Of a stretch of 64,000 bases of DNA, positions 7,384 through 21,903 are shown piece after piece. The number at the start of each line of letters is the position of its first letter. Within the stretch, counting starts at the first letter, position 1. The position numbers and the translations under genes are program-made. This DNA is from a phage, in the sequence record PZ445514.1. One strand, written 5' to 3'. The notes under the pieces are model-generated. The model saw only the letters and a list, made by a program, of their open reading frames with translations, was not told the DNA's origin and searched no databases.

Positions 7384-7413
7384 ACAAAAATGCCCCACCC
7401 TTTCGGGCAGGGC
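7384..7413 (-). terminator. rho-independent terminator
   Basis: Minus strand GCCCTGCCC-GAAA-GGGTGGGGC followed by TTTTT; downstream of gene ending at 7429. Confidence 0.6.
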
Positions 7414-7428
7414 TATGTTAACTAGATG

Positions 7429-8655
7429 TTAGAATGGGATGTCATCATCAAAGGCGTACTGTGCTGGATTCTGATCCATCGGGTCATCTTCCTCGTCATT
7501 TACAGGAGGAGCGTCTACAGTGTTTTGCTGTGGAGCTGCTTCCTGTTTGGCAGCTTGAGGTTCTTGATGGTCAGTGGACTCAGCACCGTTCTTGATCCAA
7601 TCGTACAACGGCTCAGCCAGATTAGTCAAGACATCTTTTGCTTCTGCAGTAATTGCCGCTGCAAAATCATCAACTTTCGTTTTCTTGTCAATACGGCGAC
7701 AAGCGTTCAACACCGCATTACCGACACTGGCACCTACTTCATCTTCAGTTCGGTTGGTGGCTTGAGCATACTCTTTCTTAAGCTCAATGGTGACTACGTG
7801 CAGTGTTTTAGCCACGCTTAGTGGGTCATCCACTTTAAACCCGCGATCCAGGATGATCTGCAAAGCATTGATGCTATGCCCCGTCTCTACACCAATAGGG
7901 TCGTAAGAGGATTTACGCTTGCCACCAGAGCCTTGAGTGCCGTTCTCTGCCTTAGGTGGATAGGCTTTGAAACCACTGATAATGTTTCCGGTGTCTTTGT
8001 CAACAATGGCTGCAACACGACCACCTACTACCAGGTCTTTAAGCTGCTCATCAGTGACAACCATAGCACCTTCGCCAATCTTGTGGTCATTAACAGTAAC
8101 CACGTTGCCAACAATCTGAGTCACATCACCATAGATGCGTAAAACGTCCTGATTGGCATTCTGCTGAGGTTTCTGCTTCTGGCCTTGTGATTGTGCACCT
8201 TGTTGCTGTTTTTGCTGTTGAGTCGCTGCTGGGGCCTCTCCTGCACCCAGCTTAACCATTTTAGCCAGTGATCCTTTATAATAGGTCTTACCGTTATGCT
8301 CGTTTGCCTTCAAAGGGATATTTACGATCCATCCCGGCGTTACGGTTTCCCACTTGTCATCAATTTTAACAGAGACAGAGTCTTGATGACCAGGTTTAAG
8401 CAGCTTATCACCCATACTGATCCAAACTTCTTCACCACCTTGAAGCAGGTTATCAGAGGAATCCAGTTCAGAAATCAGTAAAGAGATGGTGTGGCTGGAT
8501 TCAATTTTCTTACCTTGCCACACAGTGGTTTTAATACCTGTTGTAGGATCAGCACCTTTGATAGGTTTGATGCTGACACGTTTAATCATGCCGTGAGCCA
8601 GTAAAACAGTTTCACGCGGATTCATCGGGTTAGCAAATTGTTGAATAACGCTCAT
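7429..8655 (-). CDS. putative ssDNA-binding / replication accessory protein with SSB-like acidic C-terminal tail
   Basis: 408 aa; Q-rich low-complexity linker; ends ...AFDDDIPF, the same tip as E. coli SSB; AAGGAG upstream. Confidence 0.55.
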   Translation of the reverse strand: MSVIQQFANPMNPRETVLLAHGMIKRVSIKPIKGADPTTGIKTTVWQGKKIESSHTISLLISELDSSDNLLQGGEEVWISMGDKLLKPGHQDSVSVKIDDKWETVTPGWIVNIPLKANEHNGKTYYKGSLAKMVKLGAGEAPAATQQQKQQQGAQSQGQKQKPQQNANQDVLRIYGDVTQIVGNVVTVNDHKIGEGAMVVTDEQLKDLVVGGRVAAIVDKDTGNIISGFKAYPPKAENGTQGSGGKRKSSYDPIGVETGHSINALQIILDRGFKVDDPLSVAKTLHVVTIELKKEYAQATNRTEDEVGASVGNAVLNACRRIDKKTKVDDFAAAITAEAKDVLTNLAEPLYDWIKNGAESTDHQEPQAAKQEAAPQQNTVDAPPVNDEEDDPMDQNPAQYAFDDDIPF

Positions 8656-9020
8656 TATTTGTCTCCTTGTTCTTCGTTAGTGTTTGCCGTGTGTGCAAAC
8701 CCTGCTTGAATTAATTTGTCCTGAACTTGAGCCAGCAGGCCCATTGCAAAACTTGTGGTCCCAGAGAGGGCCATCAGCATATCTCGTTGTTGAGCTACCC
8801 AACCTAAGGCATAGTCCAAACGACGATATTTTTCTTCTTCACGCAAAGCTTGGAATAATTGTTCAGCCTCTGGCTGTTGTGTGAGCTCCTGAAGTCTTCC
8901 CATGAAAGAAGAAAGCACTAGCAGAAGAGACACTTGATCTTTACTTAACCCTAAGAAAAATTCTTGAGGTTGTTCTTGCTCGTTCATCGCAACCGACGCT
9001 TGATCGTTCATTTGTTCCAT
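8655..9020 (-). CDS. hypothetical protein
   Basis: 121-aa ORF with GGAGA upstream; TAATG overlap with next gene. Confidence 0.55.
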   Translation of the reverse strand: MEQMNDQASVAMNEQEQPQEFFLGLSKDQVSLLLVLSSFMGRLQELTQQPEAEQLFQALREEEKYRRLDYALGWVAQQRDMLMALSGTTSFAMGLLAQVQDKLIQAGFAHTANTNEEQGDK

Positions 9021-11878: not shown

Positions 11879-14656
11879 TTAGTGACAATCACCCCAATTA
11901 CGACCACACAAGTATTCACCTGTGATCTGGAACGGGACTCCCATCATTTTAGAAGCTTGCCAGAAGCAATGCACCACCATTTCACCCACAGGGCTCCAGA
12001 TAAGTTCAAGCTTCCCGTCATCGTTCAGGATAGGATCGTACACCGTGTTTCCGTCTCTGTCAACCACTTCGTTTCCGTTCTCATCCTTGCGTGCCTTTTT
12101 GTACTTATGACCGTCAAACACATGAAGTTTGGCTTCCTGCTCTGCCTTAAATGCTTCCAATTCTTCAATTGTGTCGAAGGTGTACACAGTCTTATACTTA
12201 GGCGTGTCAGGGACTTGAAGTTGGTACTCATCATGGTAATAAATAATACGACGAACACCTTCATCGTACCACCCACGCTTCACCATTTGGTGGTGCATGA
12301 GTATCCCAACTAAGTCACACAACGATGCACCGCCATTTTGTTGGTATGCATTGAGTAAAGAGTGTTTAGATCGAGTCCAGATAGCATGACCATCAAAAGA
12401 GTAGATAAACTTCTTACCCGTTGCTTCCCAGAATTTCTCCAGATCTTCTTTACGCCCCTTAAGACCCGGGTTGGCATCCCAGAGTGCATCGATTACCCTT
12501 TGTCCCAACTCTGGAGAGATATCCAGCATATCTGCAACTTTATCTTTTTGTGCCCCGTACATAACCCCATACGTGATAGGTTTACCGTCGTTACGAGATA
12601 CCTCTCTGCCTGCTACTTTTGTATATGCCTCGGCGTTGTTTTGGTGTGCGTCTCCGTTACTTACAACATCATAATACAAGCCGTTGTCGAACTCAAAGGC
12701 ACCCCAAGCCCCGATAAGCTGCTCTAAGTTGGACCCGTCAATACCGATCTCAAAGTATCCCGGAGGAACACCCCACAGACTACGCATCTCTTTACCCATA
12801 ACCACTTTAGGAGATGGTTTAGGCATGTTCGCACAAATACTGTGTTTCTGTCGGGAAGTGTTTGTTAACCCAGAACTTTTAGCAGGAAGCTTATGGTCAA
12901 TCTTCAAACGTGGGTGATTAAGAAGACCAGTATCAACCTTATCCTCCTTGATTGGATCAAGTACCGATCTGCGGTTTCGCAATGATAACCACAAGACGAT
13001 ATCTTTAGCCATCTCTCCGTTCAATTTTTCAAGATTAGGGCATAGGTGTCCAAACGTATCTTTCAGTTGCGGAGAAGTAATAAGTGCCCTAGCTTTTCTA
13101 CGTATTTTCCCGAATACTTCCTTTTTAATCCTTTCGGAGTTAGGAAAGCTTCGGAACTTGTGCACGGTTGTCTGGAACTTAGCATCAGTTTTGTTCCAGA
13201 AGTTGATAATCAGGTCACAATACTCTGACTCTAAAAGCTCGTCCATATATGCATATACTCGTGCATCAACATCTGCATCAGGTAGAGCTTTCTTCTTGCT
13301 GTCTTTAGTTACATCCTTAGTTCTCCACATTGTCGGAAGCCAACCAGCACTGATCAGGTATCGCTTAATGTCGTCCTGGTTGCTGATTTTCATAGGTATC
13401 TTGCAGTCCGGCATTCGCTTCTGCTGTAGATCACTTATTGCCTGATCCATTAGCTCTTTAGGTAAAGGTTGTGGTGTGGAGGTGCCCTTAATATAGCCTC
13501 TCAAGAAATCAGCCATCTTATCGGGGTCTTTGCAGCCCATCTCTTCACACCATTTTATCCCCATCTTACTGACATCTCCTGTAGAGGTAAATGCTCGCTT
13601 AGGCGGGGCTTTGAACTCTAAAGCGCTCATATCTACAGGATAGCCAAGCTTATCTTTTAACCATTTCCAACCATTATTGGAGATTGTCCCATCTTGGTTA
13701 AACGGCTTTTCAGGGAACTTGGGCCGCTGAGACATTGACAGCTCTTTTAAAGGTAGTTGCGGTTCAACACGATCAGCGATTTCTTTCATCCACGCATCGC
13801 AACGGTCACGTAAAGCAATAGCCCCATCTATGTCAAAATACACACCCTGACGGGCCTGCAGCTCCATCAGGAAGTGCTGCAGCATGCCTCGGCGTAATGC
13901 GTTCTTCCAGGTGATCTTCTTGAACCCTTTCGGCTTCTCTTTGGCAGGATCGTACATAAAGTTCTGCATGTCAGATTTGCCGTAGAATACACCTTTTGAT
14001 TCCGCTACCAGCTCTTTCCAGAGCAGCTCCTGGATGATAACGTCCTCGAATACACGATCCACATACTTCCACAACGGAAGATCGCGCCAGTCATCAATTT
14101 GAACTTTCTGGTTACCAAGGGCGTAGCCCCATGCCATAAGGCCGTGAGGACCGACAGGCTGCATTTTCTTAGTAACCGGGTTGAATACAGAGTCCGGACA
14201 ACCTTTTGGTAAAGGGCGATCAGGCCATAAGATTCGGCTCATCGCCAACGTATCAAACAGGTTGACCTGGTGGTCGTTGATAGTCCCCATGCATTTAGGA
14301 TCACGGAACATATCAAAATGAATACCGGATAATCTTTCCATCAGCATAAAGTCATAACTGTAGCAGTTATGGCAGTTCAAAGCTGTTGGTGACCAGTCGG
14401 AATTGCCTGTAAGCCAACCTTCTAACTCCGAAAAATCTGCTATGCGAACTTCAAAATCTTTATAAAGAGTTTTCTTTGCCAGAATAAAGTTCTTAGCCTT
14501 CTCTATATCCTCCTCGGAGTAGTGTGTGCGGTCATTTAGAGGAAGGAACAGCATAAAACGGTTCTTATTCAGCTCTTTAAACAGGCCGCAGTGATAATAA
14601 AGATCTGGGTCTTCCAGCAAACCGGATGACTCAAAATCGAAAGACCACATGCTCAT
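11879..14656 (-). CDS. DNA polymerase, family A, with 3'-5' exonuclease domain
   Basis: 925 aa; Exo I FDFESSG near N-terminus; Pol motif B K..YGVMYG and motif C YYHDEY; AAGGAGA upstream. Confidence 0.9.
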   Translation of the reverse strand: MSMWSFDFESSGLLEDPDLYYHCGLFKELNKNRFMLFLPLNDRTHYSEEDIEKAKNFILAKKTLYKDFEVRIADFSELEGWLTGNSDWSPTALNCHNCYSYDFMLMERLSGIHFDMFRDPKCMGTINDHQVNLFDTLAMSRILWPDRPLPKGCPDSVFNPVTKKMQPVGPHGLMAWGYALGNQKVQIDDWRDLPLWKYVDRVFEDVIIQELLWKELVAESKGVFYGKSDMQNFMYDPAKEKPKGFKKITWKNALRRGMLQHFLMELQARQGVYFDIDGAIALRDRCDAWMKEIADRVEPQLPLKELSMSQRPKFPEKPFNQDGTISNNGWKWLKDKLGYPVDMSALEFKAPPKRAFTSTGDVSKMGIKWCEEMGCKDPDKMADFLRGYIKGTSTPQPLPKELMDQAISDLQQKRMPDCKIPMKISNQDDIKRYLISAGWLPTMWRTKDVTKDSKKKALPDADVDARVYAYMDELLESEYCDLIINFWNKTDAKFQTTVHKFRSFPNSERIKKEVFGKIRRKARALITSPQLKDTFGHLCPNLEKLNGEMAKDIVLWLSLRNRRSVLDPIKEDKVDTGLLNHPRLKIDHKLPAKSSGLTNTSRQKHSICANMPKPSPKVVMGKEMRSLWGVPPGYFEIGIDGSNLEQLIGAWGAFEFDNGLYYDVVSNGDAHQNNAEAYTKVAGREVSRNDGKPITYGVMYGAQKDKVADMLDISPELGQRVIDALWDANPGLKGRKEDLEKFWEATGKKFIYSFDGHAIWTRSKHSLLNAYQQNGGASLCDLVGILMHHQMVKRGWYDEGVRRIIYYHDEYQLQVPDTPKYKTVYTFDTIEELEAFKAEQEAKLHVFDGHKYKKARKDENGNEVVDRDGNTVYDPILNDDGKLELIWSPVGEMVVHCFWQASKMMGVPFQITGEYLCGRNWGDCH

Positions 14657-14714: not shown

Positions 14715-16793
14715 TTAAAAAGGTGTTTCATCATCCTCAAAACCAGGAACATGGTCAGAGGACGGATCATCGTACTGGAGTTCTTCCTGCGTGTCAACAG
14801 GCTTAACAGTAGGAGTTACAACCTTATCAGCCACAACCTTGCCCATAGGTGTTTCTACAACTGCATGCTCCTGATCCTCAAACATAGCCTGAGGTCTCCA
14901 AACAACCTCCCCACCTTCTCCATCTGTAAACATTTGCATTTCTTTGTCCCAGTACCAATTACTGGCATCATGGAACTTACCTGTGTGCGGGTCCATAACC
15001 AAAGTGTCAGCAATACCTAGAGTTTTTGCTGGACGGTTTTTAAGACCTACCAGACGGACACGTCCACGAGAACGATCCACCATTTCTTCGGCCTCGACAC
15101 CTATGACTACCCAACTCAACTGTTCAAGCCCCGCCGATCCTCGCAAATTCTCTTTTCGCACAGGATACCAGAAAGGTAACGGGTTACCATCCTTGTCCTT
15201 AGGAGGCACAATCTCTGTACGTTTGAGGTGAGCGATCACCAAGATAAACACGTTAAACTGCTTACAAAACGCAGCCAGCTGAGTCATAGCCATGTCCAGT
15301 TCTTTTCGCTCATCCTTAACATTAAGCCCTGAAATTACCATGGACAGGTGATCCAGCACAATATAACGGCAATGGTACAGGCAAACCATTTGCTTAAGCT
15401 TGGTAATCAACTCATCCACCGGAATAGACCCGAAATGTTTGAACACCTTGATTTTTCCAGCTTTTGCCCATGATTGGTGAATCTCTGCGTGTTCTTGATC
15501 AGTTAAAAACTGGCTAGGATCTTCAACAAACTCTTTAACATCAAACCCTAACTGGTTTGCATACAAGGAGTTAATTGCTTCCTCTGGGTCCTCCTCAAGA
15601 TGGATCATACATAGACGATCATCCTCTTCATAGTCATCAGCCTTCGGGCATGTCGGGTCCATTAGGTATCTTGCAATACAGTGTTCCAGTTTTTTAGCTA
15701 CGGTTGTTTTACCGCCACCTGATGGACCTGTAAGCATTACGAGTGTCCCTTTGTGCAAGCCTTTTAGCATTTTTTGCAGTTTTGGGAACTCTGCGCTGAT
15801 ATCTACCCCGTTGGAAGTCTTTTTCCGCAAAGACTCGATAGAGAAGTCTTCTAAATCCGACACCGCATCAGGCACATATTTAACAGGATGCCGGAACATG
15901 TTGACAATATCTTCCAGCTTTTTAGCCTTCAGCATGTCTCGGATATCTTTTACACCGTCAGGGTCGTTTACTTCACCAGGGTATTCTACGTGGTAAACGT
16001 TATCAGCCATCAAAAATGCTGCGATATTGTGCGTGGCCTCAACACCTTTAATGACGTGTTTTTGCTTCTCTACCTCGTTAGCTGCATCGTTATCCATTGC
16101 CAGCACAACTGTTCCATAGCTACGGATAAACTTCTCATTGTTTGCAAAAGTATCTACTGCGTTTGCACATCCACAGTTAATTCCAACAAAAGGCAGGCAG
16201 GGTTTTCCTGCCAGATCACCACCGTTGATAACTGCATCGATCCCGTCCTGGACCTCTTTAGCCCACTGCTTCACCTTTGCCGGGGCTTTAGCGTTGGTGA
16301 GAATCCCTTTTACTTGTATCTGATATGCAGCCTGCCATGCTGCAATAACATCACCTTCCCCCTCACAAACGTTAATTTGCTTACGGTTGTTGGAAGATGC
16401 ACACAGCTTTTGCCCAAACATCTGAGAGTTAGCCTTTACTATGCCAACAACTGAGAAATGGCCCCTTTGCTCTTTAGGAATCGTCCAGTCACGCTTTTTG
16501 AAACCGGACAGATTTCCGTAGCGGTCGTAATATGGGAAATATGTTGCAGTGACTGTCACACCGTCTTCTTGTGACAATGCTGATCGCACACCAAAATATT
16601 GTGCAGCCATCAGACCGATATTTTGTTGTGGGACAGGGACAATTTTAGTATTTTCTAAAACAGTCTCTACAGTTTCAACTTCTTTTTCATCACGATAGTC
16701 TCGTTTCACACTTCCCCCACTTTTATACTTAGTTGCTTTCGGGTTTGGCTCACCGAAACGGTTGTATGCAGATGCCATAAATTTACTTCCCAT
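14715..16793 (-). CDS. bifunctional DNA primase/helicase (Toprim primase plus DnaB-family helicase)
   Basis: 692 aa; Toprim acidic motifs EGEGD and MDNDAAN; Walker A GPSGGGKTT and Walker B IVLDHLS. Confidence 0.9.
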   Translation of the reverse strand: MGSKFMASAYNRFGEPNPKATKYKSGGSVKRDYRDEKEVETVETVLENTKIVPVPQQNIGLMAAQYFGVRSALSQEDGVTVTATYFPYYDRYGNLSGFKKRDWTIPKEQRGHFSVVGIVKANSQMFGQKLCASSNNRKQINVCEGEGDVIAAWQAAYQIQVKGILTNAKAPAKVKQWAKEVQDGIDAVINGGDLAGKPCLPFVGINCGCANAVDTFANNEKFIRSYGTVVLAMDNDAANEVEKQKHVIKGVEATHNIAAFLMADNVYHVEYPGEVNDPDGVKDIRDMLKAKKLEDIVNMFRHPVKYVPDAVSDLEDFSIESLRKKTSNGVDISAEFPKLQKMLKGLHKGTLVMLTGPSGGGKTTVAKKLEHCIARYLMDPTCPKADDYEEDDRLCMIHLEEDPEEAINSLYANQLGFDVKEFVEDPSQFLTDQEHAEIHQSWAKAGKIKVFKHFGSIPVDELITKLKQMVCLYHCRYIVLDHLSMVISGLNVKDERKELDMAMTQLAAFCKQFNVFILVIAHLKRTEIVPPKDKDGNPLPFWYPVRKENLRGSAGLEQLSWVVIGVEAEEMVDRSRGRVRLVGLKNRPAKTLGIADTLVMDPHTGKFHDASNWYWDKEMQMFTDGEGGEVVWRPQAMFEDQEHAVVETPMGKVVADKVVTPTVKPVDTQEELQYDDPSSDHVPGFEDDETPF

Positions 16794-20194: not shown

Positions 20195-20536
20195 CTACTC
20201 AAGGTCTTCAGAGTCAAGCTCAAAAAGAATCAAACTGTGCATGCCTGCAGATAGATTAACACACCCTGCAACAATAAGGGTCTGATAGTAAGGTTCAGCA
20301 CCCTCAATGTCTTCGTTAAAATCCACAACAAGGTAGTCACCTTTGTTAAAGGTGTATTTGTCCGATGTAAACGCAAAACCTGCCCAGTCCCCTACTGCAG
20401 GGTCTTTATCAGTCACCTTTGTTAACAGTAGATCTTTTTCACGGGATCTTTTAGTAAAATCGTGAATCACAACATCCTTCTCTTCAGGAGTTGGATTGCC
20501 ACACACGTAGTTAACTATATTTCTCCACAAACTCAT
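20195..20536 (-). CDS. hypothetical protein
   Basis: 113-aa ORF; ATGA overlap with helicase gene. Confidence 0.55.
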   Translation of the reverse strand: MSLWRNIVNYVCGNPTPEEKDVVIHDFTKRSREKDLLLTKVTDKDPAVGDWAGFAFTSDKYTFNKGDYLVVDFNEDIEGAEPYYQTLIVAGCVNLSAGMHSLILFELDSEDLE

Positions 20537-21903
20537 ACGTCCCCCTCTTCGGCTCTGGTTTCAAAATCTTTCCTGACAATTTTGTCTAAGTCAGGGAATG
20601 TTGTATTGTAAAACTCTACGACTCGCGGGTCAACAATAATGTCAACTTCTCTTAGTGGACGCAACAAGTTTATTCCTTGTATTGTCTTAACCCGACTCAA
20701 AGCAACATACGTCATCCCAGGAGAGAAAGCTCCGTTCTTTCCAAGGTCCAGGTTGTAACAATCTAGCGTAAGTCCTTGACTTTTATGAGATGTTACGGCA
20801 TACCCAGATTTCAGAGGAAGTTGCCTGTATGACCCAATCACTACCCTCTCTATAAACTTCTCCATCTTCCTTTCTGCAATGTTGTATCTCTGAGATGGCT
20901 TATACTCGTTATTTTCCCACAACCTCTGCTCTATGTCAACCTGTGTTCCATCTTCAAGCTCTACCACCACCGCCTTGTTCTTAAATTTAACAATTGTGGC
21001 ACGTGTTCCGTTAACATAATAAGGTACTTTGTGCGTCGGGTCAACATCGTTGGCGGTTATCATAACTTTCATGCCAATTTTCAACTTCATCTCCTGCTCA
21101 ACTGGCAGGGTGGAGGGAAACTTACCCTTCATTTCACCAGTGTATACCTTCTCTGGGGCGTTGATGGCATCATAGAACCTTCTGTTCACTTCCTCTGCTT
21201 GTTTGTTGGTGGCGCAAATTGTGAGAGCGTCTGTTGGTACACCGCCTTTGTAACAGCGAGCATTAAGTTCTGCTACAACCTCTTTTATGCGACGACCCTC
21301 ACGAACACAGTTGAGCATTGTGGCAAATCGAATAGACTCCTGTCGGAACTGGTCTATTAGGGCTATGTTGTGAAGGTCCAGCTCTTTCCAAGATTCGGTA
21401 TAGCAACATAGGTCTGTGTGGTAGAAGTTGAAGTAGGCCTCCTTCTCCATAGAAGAGACAACAGGAGGTGCCTGGTAAAAATCGCCAAACAATATGACCT
21501 GTATGCCTCCGAAAGGTTTGTCATTTTTTCGAAGGAAGCGGAGTTTCCTATCCATCTCTATAAACTTATCAGCACGGATCATAGAGATTTCATCGATAAT
21601 TAGGATGGTAAATGCCTTGCTTTTCAAAGGCTTTGCTGTTTTTGCCCTTATTGCAGTCCAGTCAGACTCCATGCTCACACCTGCTGCAAGATCGAAGGTT
21701 CGGTGTGCTGTTGCTCCATTAACGTTTAAAGCGGCTACCCCTGTCGGGGCAACCGTTATGCAAGAGTCTCCATACATTGACTGGATCATGTTGATGAGGT
21801 ACGTCTTCCCACAACCTGCGGGTCCTGAAACGAAGACATTCTCCCCACTCATGATTGCAACAAGGGCAGCATCTGTGCCTACATCATACTGCCCTTTTTC
21901 CAT
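20533..21903 (-). CDS. SF1 DNA helicase, Dda/RecD-like
   Basis: 456 aa; Walker A GPAGCGKT; C-terminal TSHKSQG and ALSRVK motifs typical of RecD/Dda helicases. Confidence 0.85.
   Translation of the reverse strand: MEKGQYDVGTDAALVAIMSGENVFVSGPAGCGKTYLINMIQSMYGDSCITVAPTGVAALNVNGATAHRTFDLAAGVSMESDWTAIRAKTAKPLKSKAFTILIIDEISMIRADKFIEMDRKLRFLRKNDKPFGGIQVILFGDFYQAPPVVSSMEKEAYFNFYHTDLCCYTESWKELDLHNIALIDQFRQESIRFATMLNCVREGRRIKEVVAELNARCYKGGVPTDALTICATNKQAEEVNRRFYDAINAPEKVYTGEMKGKFPSTLPVEQEMKLKIGMKVMITANDVDPTHKVPYYVNGTRATIVKFKNKAVVVELEDGTQVDIEQRLWENNEYKPSQRYNIAERKMEKFIERVVIGSYRQLPLKSGYAVTSHKSQGLTLDCYNLDLGKNGAFSPGMTYVALSRVKTIQGINLLRPLREVDIIVDPRVVEFYNTTFPDLDKIVRKDFETRAEEGDV

What the first reader, a model, noticed from the sequence alone, without database searches (positions are those of the whole stretch)
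7429..8655. 408-aa protein ending in the E. coli SSB tail motif DDDIPF
The terminal hexapeptide DDDIPF is the exact motif E. coli SSB uses to recruit replication and repair partners. Here it terminates a much larger Q-rich protein without an obvious canonical OB-fold. It may be a phage SSB, or a protein that mimics the SSB tail to hijack or compete for host SSB-interacting proteins.
Basis: partly seen in the sequence, partly recalled or inferred. Interest (0 to 1): 0.5.

Follow-up and report, generated by a model that had tools for sequence, protein, structure and literature searches.

The report
Phage SSB-like protein with host tail
This gene of an rV5-like E. coli phage most likely encodes the phage's own single-stranded-DNA-binding protein, built on an unusual scaffold but ending in the same docking peptide as the host's SSB; a 2026 preprint already describes a 99%-identical protein in these terms.

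Summary
Window 7429-8655 on the minus strand is a 408-aa ORF ending ...AFDDDIPF-stop, with an RBS, a start coupled to the upstream ORF and a terminator directly downstream.

The window is a Vequintavirus (rV5-like) genome. The protein is 404/408 identical to Bas52_0087 of phage RudolfGeigy. A bioRxiv preprint of April 2026 reports that protein as an "SSB-like" trigger of the DRT10 defence system, with an FDDDIPF tip.

- **Sequence databases:** nothing is recognised (no Pfam hit; PHROG 4477 "unknown").
- **Family:** the acidic-[ILV]PF tip holds across at least 250 diverse relatives.
- **Context:** the gene follows a primase-helicase and a family-A polymerase even in 31%-identical relatives. No other SSB was found in the 136-kb genome.

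It is most likely the phage's replicative SSB, whose tip recruits host SSB partners and/or the phage replisome. DNA binding and tail interactions remain untested. The finding is already known and of moderate interest. An unexplained conserved 15-residue "cap" follows the tip in other alleles.

The parts
7429..8655 (-). CDS, 408 aa plus TAA stop: SSB-like protein, ortholog of Bas52_0087 (PHROG 4477)
8236..8655 (-). Domain D1 (aa 1-140): OB fold, mildly basic (pI 8.8). Conserved G22, H55, W78, G82, W102, G108, G122.
8152..8235 (-). Linker 1 (aa 141-168): Q-rich, disordered, and length-polymorphic between near-identical alleles
   Evidence: pLDDT below 50; 12 Q in 28 residues; deletions in P0002 and P0005
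7948..8151 (-). Domain D2 (aa 169-236): small five-stranded beta-barrel with OB/S1-like strand order. Accessory: present in only about 28% of diverse family members.
   Evidence: Secondary structure. IF1-like and proteasome OB-domain Foldseek hits of about 65-70 columns. Occupancy. The preprint calls it a second OB fold.
7906..7947 (-). Linker 2 (aa 237-250): G/S/K-rich, disordered
7588..7905 (-). Domain D3 (aa 251-356): four-helix bundle and the best-conserved part of the family (D252, G255, G259, H260, N263, G308, G312). It carries both DRT10 escape positions, D252 and Y351.
   Evidence: pLDDT 90-96 and helices 253-270, 278-299, 304-321, 328-355. Conservation. Escape mutants.
7456..7587 (-). 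Intrinsically disordered acidic linker (aa 357-400), net charge -10, P/Q/E/A-rich
   Evidence: pLDDT below 50; charge
7432..7455 (-). C-terminal tip AFDDDIPF with a free carboxyl end. The last 7 residues are identical to those of E. coli SSB.
7392..7413 (-). Intrinsic-terminator-like hairpin (GCCCTGCCC GAAA GGGTGGGGC) followed by a T-run, 16 nt after the stop
8663..8668 (-). Shine-Dalgarno AAGGAG, 7 nt upstream of the ATG. The ATG overlaps the stop of the upstream ORF (TAATG).
8655..9020 (-). Upstream 121-aa ORF, translationally coupled (PHROG 7310, unknown function); a possible partner
11879..14656 (-). Context: family-A (T7-like) DNA polymerase, same strand, upstream
14715..16793 (-). Context: primase/DnaB-type helicase, same strand. 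Its own C-terminus is acidic and ends ...GFEDDETPF.

Best explanation
The gene most likely encodes the phage's own single-stranded-DNA-binding protein, serving its T7-like replication and recombination machinery.

Proposed mechanism:
1. The mildly basic N-terminal OB domain (D1) binds ssDNA. In this phage lineage the small accessory barrel D2 may help.
2. The conserved four-helix domain D3 provides self-association and/or a partner-docking surface.
3. The long acidic disordered tail presents a free ...FDDDIPF tip on ssDNA-bound protein.
4. The tip acts as a docking peptide. It would fit the SSB-Ct pockets of host proteins (ExoI/SbcB, chi, PriA, RecQ, RecO, RecG and others). By analogy with T7 gp2.5 and gp4, it probably also fits a basic patch on the phage polymerase.

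What is shown here: the ORF and its signals, the motif and its conservation, the predicted folds, the synteny, and the lack of any other SSB candidate.

What is shown by others, for a 99%-identical ortholog: missense changes D252V and Y351C let the phage escape DRT10, and ExoI overexpression attenuates DRT10-mediated restriction.

What is inferred: ssDNA binding, oligomerisation through D3, and every tail-partner interaction.
For: 1. **Motif.** The tip is exact, at a true C-terminus, and far beyond chance.
2. **Motif conservation.** 152 of 203 family sequences end in xPF. A further 37 have PF plus a cap, PF/PW plus at most one residue, or an acidic run ending in F/W. The consensus of the last eight residues is DFDDDIPF. 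P407 and F408 are near-universal in 138 diverse representatives.
4. **SSB-like polarity.** D1 has pI 8.8. The last 52 residues carry net charge -13 and are predicted disordered.
5. **Context.** The gene lies on the same strand downstream of a PIF1-like helicase, a primase/DnaB-type helicase and a family-A polymerase. The order primase-helicase, PolA, a few small ORFs, then this gene recurs in three metagenomic contigs whose proteins are only 31-33% identical.
6. **No other SSB.** None is annotated in the 136-kb genome. Local tblastn and phmmer with E. coli SSB, a canonical phage SSB, T7 gp2.5 and T4 gp32 find only this protein's tail.
7. **Independent work.** The preprint on Bas52_0087 (404/408 identical) predicts an SSB-like fold. 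It finds only missense escapers of an ssDNA-producing defence system, with a genetic link to ExoI.
8. **Annotators.** Several GenBank records label phi92-like relatives as SSB.
9. **Precedents.** T7 gp2.5's acidic tail and terminal Phe dock on T7 polymerase. The tip of phage HK620 SSB recruits the phage protein Sak4.
10. **Second tail.** The phage's own primase-helicase also ends in an acidic ...EDDETPF tail.
Against: - There is no sequence-level membership in any SSB family. Pfam finds nothing. NCBIfam SSB models touch only the tail, at E 0.3-0.7. The PDB profile search hits only the tail, at E 0.1-0.2.
- No biochemical data exist for this protein or its ortholog.
- Expressing the ortholog alone neither harms cells nor triggers DRT10.
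- About 7% of family members, including viable Vequintaviruses, carry a 15-residue cap after IPF. A free Phe carboxylate therefore cannot be indispensable in every phage.
- The absence of another SSB rests on annotation and BLAST-level searches. A very divergent one could have been missed, and the phage could also use host SSB.
Confidence: 0.7

Rival explanations
1. Host-takeover decoy. The protein's main job is to present many copies of the host SSB tip and so titrate or redirect host SSB-interacting proteins, for example keeping ExoI/SbcB off phage 3' ssDNA ends. DNA binding is dispensable or secondary, and the phage relies on host SSB for replication.
For: - The last 7 residues are identical to E. 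coli SSB. Some relatives match the last 12 residues, EPPMDFDDDIPF.
- The preprint links the ortholog genetically to SbcB dosage and proposes competition with or displacement of SbcB.
- No sequence homology to SSB bodies.
Against: - A confident OB fold of the SSB type occupies the N-terminus and is conserved family-wide.
- The tight synteny with polymerase and helicase points to a replisome part.
- No other SSB was found in a phage that encodes its own replisome.
- Overexpressing the ortholog alone is not toxic. Massive titration of essential SSB partners might be expected to be toxic.
- Capped alleles lacking a free tip exist.
Confidence: 0.1
2. T7-style internal wiring. The tip exists mainly to couple the SSB to the phage's own family-A polymerase and primase-helicase, as T7 gp2.5 and gp4 use acidic tails ending in Phe. 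Its identity with the host tip is convergent or incidental, and host partners play no significant role.
For: - The replication module has a family-A polymerase and a gp4-like primase-helicase.
- The primase-helicase itself ends ...GFEDDETPF, mirroring the two acidic Phe-terminated tails of T7.
- The T7 literature shows the tail and terminal Phe acting on the polymerase basic patch.
- A phage SSB tip recruiting a phage partner is documented for HK620.
Against: - The tip is not merely acidic with a terminal Phe. It reproduces the bacterial consensus D-F-D-D-D-I-P-F across the family, more than electrostatic docking needs.
- In the three distant contigs the helicase tails are not of this type.
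- The genetic link to ExoI suggests host partners matter.
- The two uses are not mutually exclusive.
Confidence: 0.25
3. Recombination or replication mediator rather than the bulk SSB. On this reading it is an OB-plus-helical-domain accessory, RecO-like in outline, that loads or remodels other proteins on ssDNA, with the tail serving for autoregulation.
For: - D3 is the most conserved module and the site of the escape mutations, which suggests a specific protein-protein function.
Against: - RecO reads the SSB tip rather than carrying one.
- The long disordered linker plus tip is the hallmark of SSBs themselves.
- No zinc-finger or other RecO signature was found, and there are no sequence hits.
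Confidence: 0.1

Closest known systems
Bas52_0087 (QXV84166.1) of Escherichia phage RudolfGeigy / Bas52, bioRxiv 10.64898/2026.04.29.721553
   Same: - 404/408 identical, same length, same FDDDIPF tip, with D252 and Y351 present.
- Same genomic position in a Vequintavirus.
- Described there as SSB-like, with two OB folds, a disordered C-terminus and an SSB C-tip, and as the determinant of DRT10 activation.
   Different: Four substitutions: S280G, E359G, A369T and A401S (window residue first). The text sections of the preprint that I read do not describe the four-helix domain in which both escape mutations lie in my model. That work did not address the family's breadth, its synteny, or the absence of another SSB.
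Bacterial homotetrameric SSB (E. coli SSB; Pfam PF00436 / TIGR00621)
   Same: - Disordered low-complexity linker.
- C-terminal tip identical over the last 7 residues.
   Different: - No detectable sequence homology in the OB domain.
- 408 aa rather than 178 aa.
- Two extra folded domains (D2, D3) lie between the OB domain and the tail.
- The Q-rich linker sits between D1 and D2.
- The oligomeric state is unknown.
Bacteriophage T7 gp2.5 (with gp4 and gp5)
   Same: - Encoded beside a family-A polymerase and a primase-helicase.
- OB fold plus an acidic disordered tail ending in an essential-type Phe.
- The helicase also has an acidic Phe-terminated tail.
   Different: - No sequence similarity.
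- The tip follows the bacterial DDDIPF consensus rather than ...DGDF.
- The extra D2 and D3 domains are absent from gp2.5.
Phage HK620 SSB with Sak4 (PMC5928155)
   Same: A phage-encoded SSB whose last six residues, similar to DDDIPF, are needed to recruit a phage partner on ssDNA.
   Different: HK620 SSB is a distant but recognisable homolog of bacterial SSB and a tetramer. It sits in a recombination module, not a replisome module.

Membership tests
Bacterial-type SSB (PF00436 / TIGR00621) | Sequence match of the OB domain to the family model above its threshold | tested here: not met
   Pfam has no SSB hit. TIGR00621 gives E 0.29 at 11 bits against a cutoff of 54, covering only residues 331-408. 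phmmer and a profile search against PDB hit only the tail.
Bacterial-type SSB (PF00436 / TIGR00621) | N-terminal OB fold of the ssDNA-binding type | tested here: met
   [not shown]
Bacterial-type SSB (PF00436 / TIGR00621) | Intrinsically disordered linker followed by an acidic tip ...D-D-D-[IL]-P-F with a free C-terminus | tested here: met
   Residues 357-403 have pLDDT below 50. The last 52 residues carry net charge -13. FDDDIPF is followed by TAA.
Bacterial-type SSB (PF00436 / TIGR00621) | Sequence-independent, high-affinity ssDNA binding; homotetramer | not testable with these tools
   This needs EMSA or anisotropy and SEC-MALS. No multimer prediction was available.
Bas52_0087-type SSB-like proteins (PHROG 4477) | Full-length sequence match | tested here: met
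   PHROG 4477 matches at E 7e-174 over residues 1-408. BLASTP against Bas52_0087 gives 404/408 identities.
Bas52_0087-type SSB-like proteins (PHROG 4477) | Residues whose substitution abolishes DRT10 triggering (D252, Y351) | tested here: met
   Both are present. D252 is conserved in 113 of 138 diverse relatives.
Bas52_0087-type SSB-like proteins (PHROG 4477) | Required for DRT10 activation during infection | not testable with these tools
   This is a genetic result for the ortholog only.
T7 gp2.5-type SSB | Sequence or specific fold similarity to gp2.5 | tested here: not met
   [not shown]
T7 gp2.5-type SSB | Acidic C-terminal tail ending in Phe, encoded with a family-A polymerase and a gp4-like primase-helicase | tested here: met
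Pure SSB-tail mimic (no nucleic-acid-binding module) | Absence of a DNA-binding fold | tested here: not met
   An OB fold is predicted with high confidence and is conserved across the family.

The most novel reading that the evidence does not exclude
The family is a distinct, uncatalogued class of mobile-element SSB: a divergent OB domain, a family-defining four-helix module and a host-type SSB-Ct tip. On this reading the tip is an active host-manipulation device. It sequesters ExoI and other SSB partners on phage ssDNA, and that perturbation is what DRT10 guards against. The conserved end of the four-helix domain (D252, G255, G259, H260, Y351) would be the oligomerisation or sensing surface. 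As a further layer, phages and plasmids switch such tips off or retarget them with a conserved 15-residue C-terminal cap (AP[IV]GLQYG...), sometimes carried together with a homing endonuclease.
Probability: 0.2. Interest if true: 0.6.

Novelty: already known. Interest (0 to 1): 0.3.

Why it matters
rV5-like phages are common therapeutic and model coliphages, yet no SSB is annotated in the records examined here. Identifying this gene as the probable SSB fills a gap in their replication module and corrects the 'hypothetical protein' label seen on nearly all of the 360 or so matching phage records.

The protein is also the reported trigger of a reverse-transcriptase defence system (DRT10). Whether it binds ssDNA, and what its host-identical tip recruits, decides how that system senses infection.

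The core observation and interpretation have already been published for a 99%-identical ortholog. This analysis adds context rather than discovery:
- a domain-level fold test;
- the conserved four-helix domain that holds both escape sites;
- the breadth of the family;
- synteny with a T7-like replisome;
- the lack of any other SSB candidate.

Tried and rejected
- **Sequence searches of the whole protein** gave no functional assignment: Pfam, NCBIfam, PADLOC and PDB (phmmer and profile). Only the tail resembles SSB.
- **Foldseek on the full-length model** gave only weak scores (E >= 0.02), because three domains are joined by flexible linkers (pTM 0.36). It was uninformative apart from the uniform OB-fold hit list. 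The question was resolved by modelling D1 alone.
- **The cap as a homing-endonuclease by-product** was considered and rejected. The cap occurs without any endonuclease in mEp235, Vibrio phage F27, BME3 and KpS8, and its codons differ mostly synonymously.
- **An apparent cap on a ribonucleotide reductase small subunit** (H44) turned out to be mis-registered annotation in OY978796.1. The sequence is the primase-helicase C-terminus.
- **The search for homologous proteins with a short tail query** failed twice. A 27-aa query was too short.
- **Other defence papers.** The Retron-Eco2, Retron-Eco7 and Hna papers mention Vequintavirinae or phage SSBs but do not identify this gene. The Vequintavirinae phage HZA56 'unknown function' trigger of Retron-Eco7 could not be checked.
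- **RecO-like reading:** considered and ranked low (see the rival explanations).

Full report
**1. The observation**

The coordinates are right, but the gene is on the minus strand. The plus-strand frame of 7429-8655 is broken by stops. The minus strand carries a 408-aa ATG-initiated ORF ending ...NPAQYAFDDDIPF, followed directly by TAA.

It looks like an expressed gene. AAGGAG lies 7 nt upstream of the ATG. The ATG overlaps the stop of the preceding 121-aa ORF (TAATG). A GC-rich hairpin plus T-run sits 16 nt after the stop.

With the window's amino-acid composition, DDDIPF at a given C-terminus has probability about 3e-8, so it is not a chance match. Residues 141-168 are indeed Q-rich.

**2. 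What the window is, and prior work**

The ORF is 100% identical at the DNA level to Escherichia phage rV5_ev147, and 95-99% identical to about 100 other Vequintavirus genomes, where it is annotated 'hypothetical protein'. The window corresponds to rV5_ev147 positions 113328-136384 joined to 1-~40943.

A literature search found a bioRxiv preprint (10.64898/2026.04.29.721553, 30 April 2026). It reports the following:
- Escape mutants of BASEL phage Bas52 from the DRT10 (UG17) reverse-transcriptase defence carry D252V or Y351C in Bas52_0087.
- The C-terminus carries FDDDIPF, resembling the E. coli SSB tip.
- Expressing the protein alone does not trigger DRT10.
- Overexpressing ExoI (SbcB) attenuates the defence.

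I verified that Bas52 is phage RudolfGeigy, MZ501102.1. Bas52_0087 is 404/408 identical to the window protein, with D252 and Y351 retained.

**3. Anatomy**

Sequence libraries recognise nothing. There is no Pfam domain. PHROG 4477 is 'unknown function'. PADLOC gives nothing. NCBIfam SSB models touch only the tail at non-significant E-values. PDB sequence searches hit only the tail.

AlphaFold2 with a 23-sequence alignment gives three confident domains separated by disordered segments:

| Segment | Residues | Prediction |
|---|---|---|
| D1 | 1-140 | all-beta |
| Linker 1 | 141-168 | disordered, Q-rich |
| D2 | 169-236 | five strands with a short helix between strands 3 and 4 |
| Linker 2 | 237-250 | disordered |
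| D3 | 251-356 | four helices, pLDDT 90-96 |
| Tail | 357-408 | disordered |

D1 is therefore an OB fold closest to the SSB type, at about 10-13% identity. The IF1-like and proteasome-OB hits of about 65-70 columns do not appear among the top 60 hits listed for D1 alone. They probably come from D2, but I did not test D2 separately.

The charge layout is SSB-like. D1 has pI 8.8 and the linkers are basic. The last 52 residues carry net charge -13.

**4. The family**

A word-indexed search found 56 relatives. A profile search of 1.84 billion representatives found 252 at E <= 1e-3. Most are 250-300 aa and consist of D1, D3 and the tail. D2 is occupied in only about 28% of 138 diverse members, so it is an accessory of the Vequintavirinae-like branch.

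The best-conserved features are in D3 and the tip:
- D3: D252 (113/138), G255, G259 (130/138), H260, N263, G308, G312 (137/137).
- Tip: P407 and F408.

Of 203 sequences on file, 152 end in xPF, and the consensus of the last eight residues is DFDDDIPF. Several members reproduce the last 12 residues of E. coli SSB, EPPMDFDDDIPF.

Both DRT10 escape positions lie in D3. D252 caps helix 1 and Y351 is near the end of helix 4. In an up-down-up-down bundle these lie at the same end, next to the conserved glycines and H260. This follows from the topology; I had no access to the model coordinates.

**5. Context**

In the window the gene is the last of a co-directional block:
1. PIF1-like helicase (20533-21903);
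2. methyltransferases;
3. primase/DnaB-type helicase (14715-16793);
4. family-A polymerase (11879-14656);
5. about ten small ORFs of unknown function;
6. this gene.

The same order, primase-helicase then PolA then a few small ORFs then this gene, is found in three metagenomic contigs whose proteins are only 31-33% identical.

No SSB is annotated anywhere in the 136-kb genome. Local tblastn and phmmer with E. coli SSB, a canonical phage SSB (ECH1), T7 gp2.5 and T4 gp32 find nothing except this protein's tail.

The phage's own primase-helicase ends in an acidic ...GFEDDETPF tail. This recalls T7, where both gp2.5 and gp4 use acidic Phe-terminated tails on the polymerase (plus my own knowledge of the Richardson-laboratory work).

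**6. Most likely mechanism (confidence about 0.7)**

This is the phage's replicative and recombinational SSB.
- D1, perhaps with D2, binds ssDNA.
- D3 mediates self-association or partner docking.
- The acidic disordered tail exposes a free FDDDIPF tip once the protein is on DNA.
- The tip docks into SSB-Ct pockets of host proteins and/or a basic patch on the phage polymerase.

The link to DRT10 fits this reading. That system makes ssDNA, and ExoI, a classical SSB-Ct client (my own knowledge), modulates it.

Shown here are the motif, its conservation, the predicted folds, the synteny and the lack of an alternative SSB. Shown by others are the escape genetics and the SbcB dosage effect. DNA binding, the oligomeric state and every tail interaction are inferred.

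**7. Rivals**

- **Pure decoy (about 0.1).** It is disfavoured by the conserved OB fold, the replisome synteny and the non-toxicity of overexpression.
- **Tip serves only the phage replisome (about 0.25 as the principal role).** It is compatible with the best explanation. It is supported by the helicase tail. It is weakened by the fidelity of the tip to the bacterial consensus and by the ExoI link.
- **RecO-like mediator (about 0.1).** It has only generic structural support.

**8. Comparison and novelty**

Functionally the protein resembles bacterial SSB and T7 gp2.5. By sequence it belongs to neither family, so those membership tests fail. By architecture it shares the OB fold, the disordered linker and the tip.

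It is a member of the Bas52_0087 / PHROG 4477 group. Because a 99%-identical protein has been described with the same features and interpretation, I rate the finding 'already known', with moderate-to-low interest.

What this analysis adds:
- a clean domain-level OB test;
- recognition of the conserved four-helix domain holding both escape sites;
- the breadth of the family and the near-universality of the tip;
- the T7-like synteny;
- the absence of any other SSB candidate.

**9. Side observation, unexplained**

About 7% of family members carry a conserved 15-residue cap directly after IPF, of the form AP[VI]GLQY[GA]xxx[IM][HY]x[ILV]. The window allele is uncapped.

*With an endonuclease.* In phage VB-EcoM-WM the cap comes with a cassette of about 640 bp inserted within the last codons. 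The cassette carries an overlapping endonuclease VII/HNH-type ORF. The canonical SSB of phage ECH1 has the same arrangement.

*Without an endonuclease.* The cap is also found in:
- the canonical SSBs of mEp235 and Vibrio phage F27;
- the SSB-like protein of BME3;
- the primase-helicase of Klebsiella phage KpS8 (...DDDTPFAPIGLQYAKHAIYVI).

*On plasmids.* Matches covering at least 80% of a tip-plus-cap query occur in 94 plasmid records, and nearly all those listed lie in annotated SSB genes.

Codon comparison shows mostly synonymous differences across APxGLQYG, which argues for selection on the peptide. A capped tip has no free Phe carboxylate. By what is known of SSB-Ct recognition (my own knowledge), it should not fit the canonical pocket. 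Its function is unknown.

Noticed in passing
Not in the window (its allele is uncapped at 7429-7434). Seen at L003:2540-2584, L004:2525-2569, L005:2540-2584, L017:1528-1572, L018:1528-1572, L019:1522-1566.: A conserved 15-residue cap, AP[VI]GLQY[GA]xxx[IM][HY]x[ILV], directly follows the ...DD[DE][IT]PF tip in four settings:
- about 7% of this family;
- canonical phage SSBs (ECH1, mEp235, Vibrio phage F27);
- the primase-helicase of Klebsiella phage KpS8;
- 94 plasmid records, nearly all those listed lying in annotated SSB genes.

Codon differences are mostly synonymous, so the peptide appears to be under selection. A capped tip lacks the free Phe carboxylate. Function unknown.
   Followed up: partly
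L003:2533-3180 compared with window 7425-7435; L004:2559-2969: In phage VB-EcoM-WM a cassette of about 640 bp is inserted within the last codons of this gene. It carries the cap plus an overlapping 207-aa ORF (PHROG 'endonuclease VII', with an N-terminal CxxC...CxxC motif). A related endonuclease overlaps the end of the canonical SSB gene of phage ECH1. This looks like a free-standing homing endonuclease that resides at SSB-tip coding sequence. The window lacks it.
   Followed up: partly
window 14718-14741 (minus strand): The phage primase/DnaB-type helicase ends in an acidic tail, ...HVPGFEDDETPF. This resembles both the SSB tip and the acidic Phe-terminated tail of T7 gp4. It suggests that both tails address the same site on the phage family-A polymerase.
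   Followed up: partly
window 8655-9020 (minus strand): The 121-aa ORF immediately upstream (PHROG 7310, unknown function, no Pfam hit) is translationally coupled to the SSB-like gene through a TAATG overlap. It may be a functional partner.
   Followed up: no
L014:9837-10001: In a distant metagenomic relative, the small ORF whose end overlaps the start of the SSB-like gene matches Pfam PF25708 (Phage_T7_Gp5_9, the T7 RecBCD inhibitor family).
   Followed up: no
window 8152-8235 (minus strand): The Q-rich linker is length-polymorphic among alleles that are otherwise 95-98% identical. P0002 lacks 4 residues and P0005 lacks 13 residues in this segment. This is typical of an unconstrained low-complexity spacer.
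   Followed up: partly
GenBank MG0656xx records: Sixteen records named 'Campylobacter phage' with host Campylobacter jejuni are about 97.5% identical to E. coli Vequintaviruses across this gene. The host or name assignments in those records look doubtful.
   Followed up: no
L020 (OY978796.1, Klebsiella phage vB_Kpn_K45PH128C2): The feature table of this record appears mis-registered. The CDS labelled 'ribonucleoside diphosphate reductase small subunit' translates to the C-terminus of the primase-helicase, and the next 'CDS' is full of stops.
   Followed up: yes
window 1-64000: The window runs across the ends of the linear GenBank record. It equals rV5_ev147 113328-136384 followed by 1-~40943, so it contains the replication module, rIIB/rIIA and the tail-fibre region in one piece.
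   Followed up: yes
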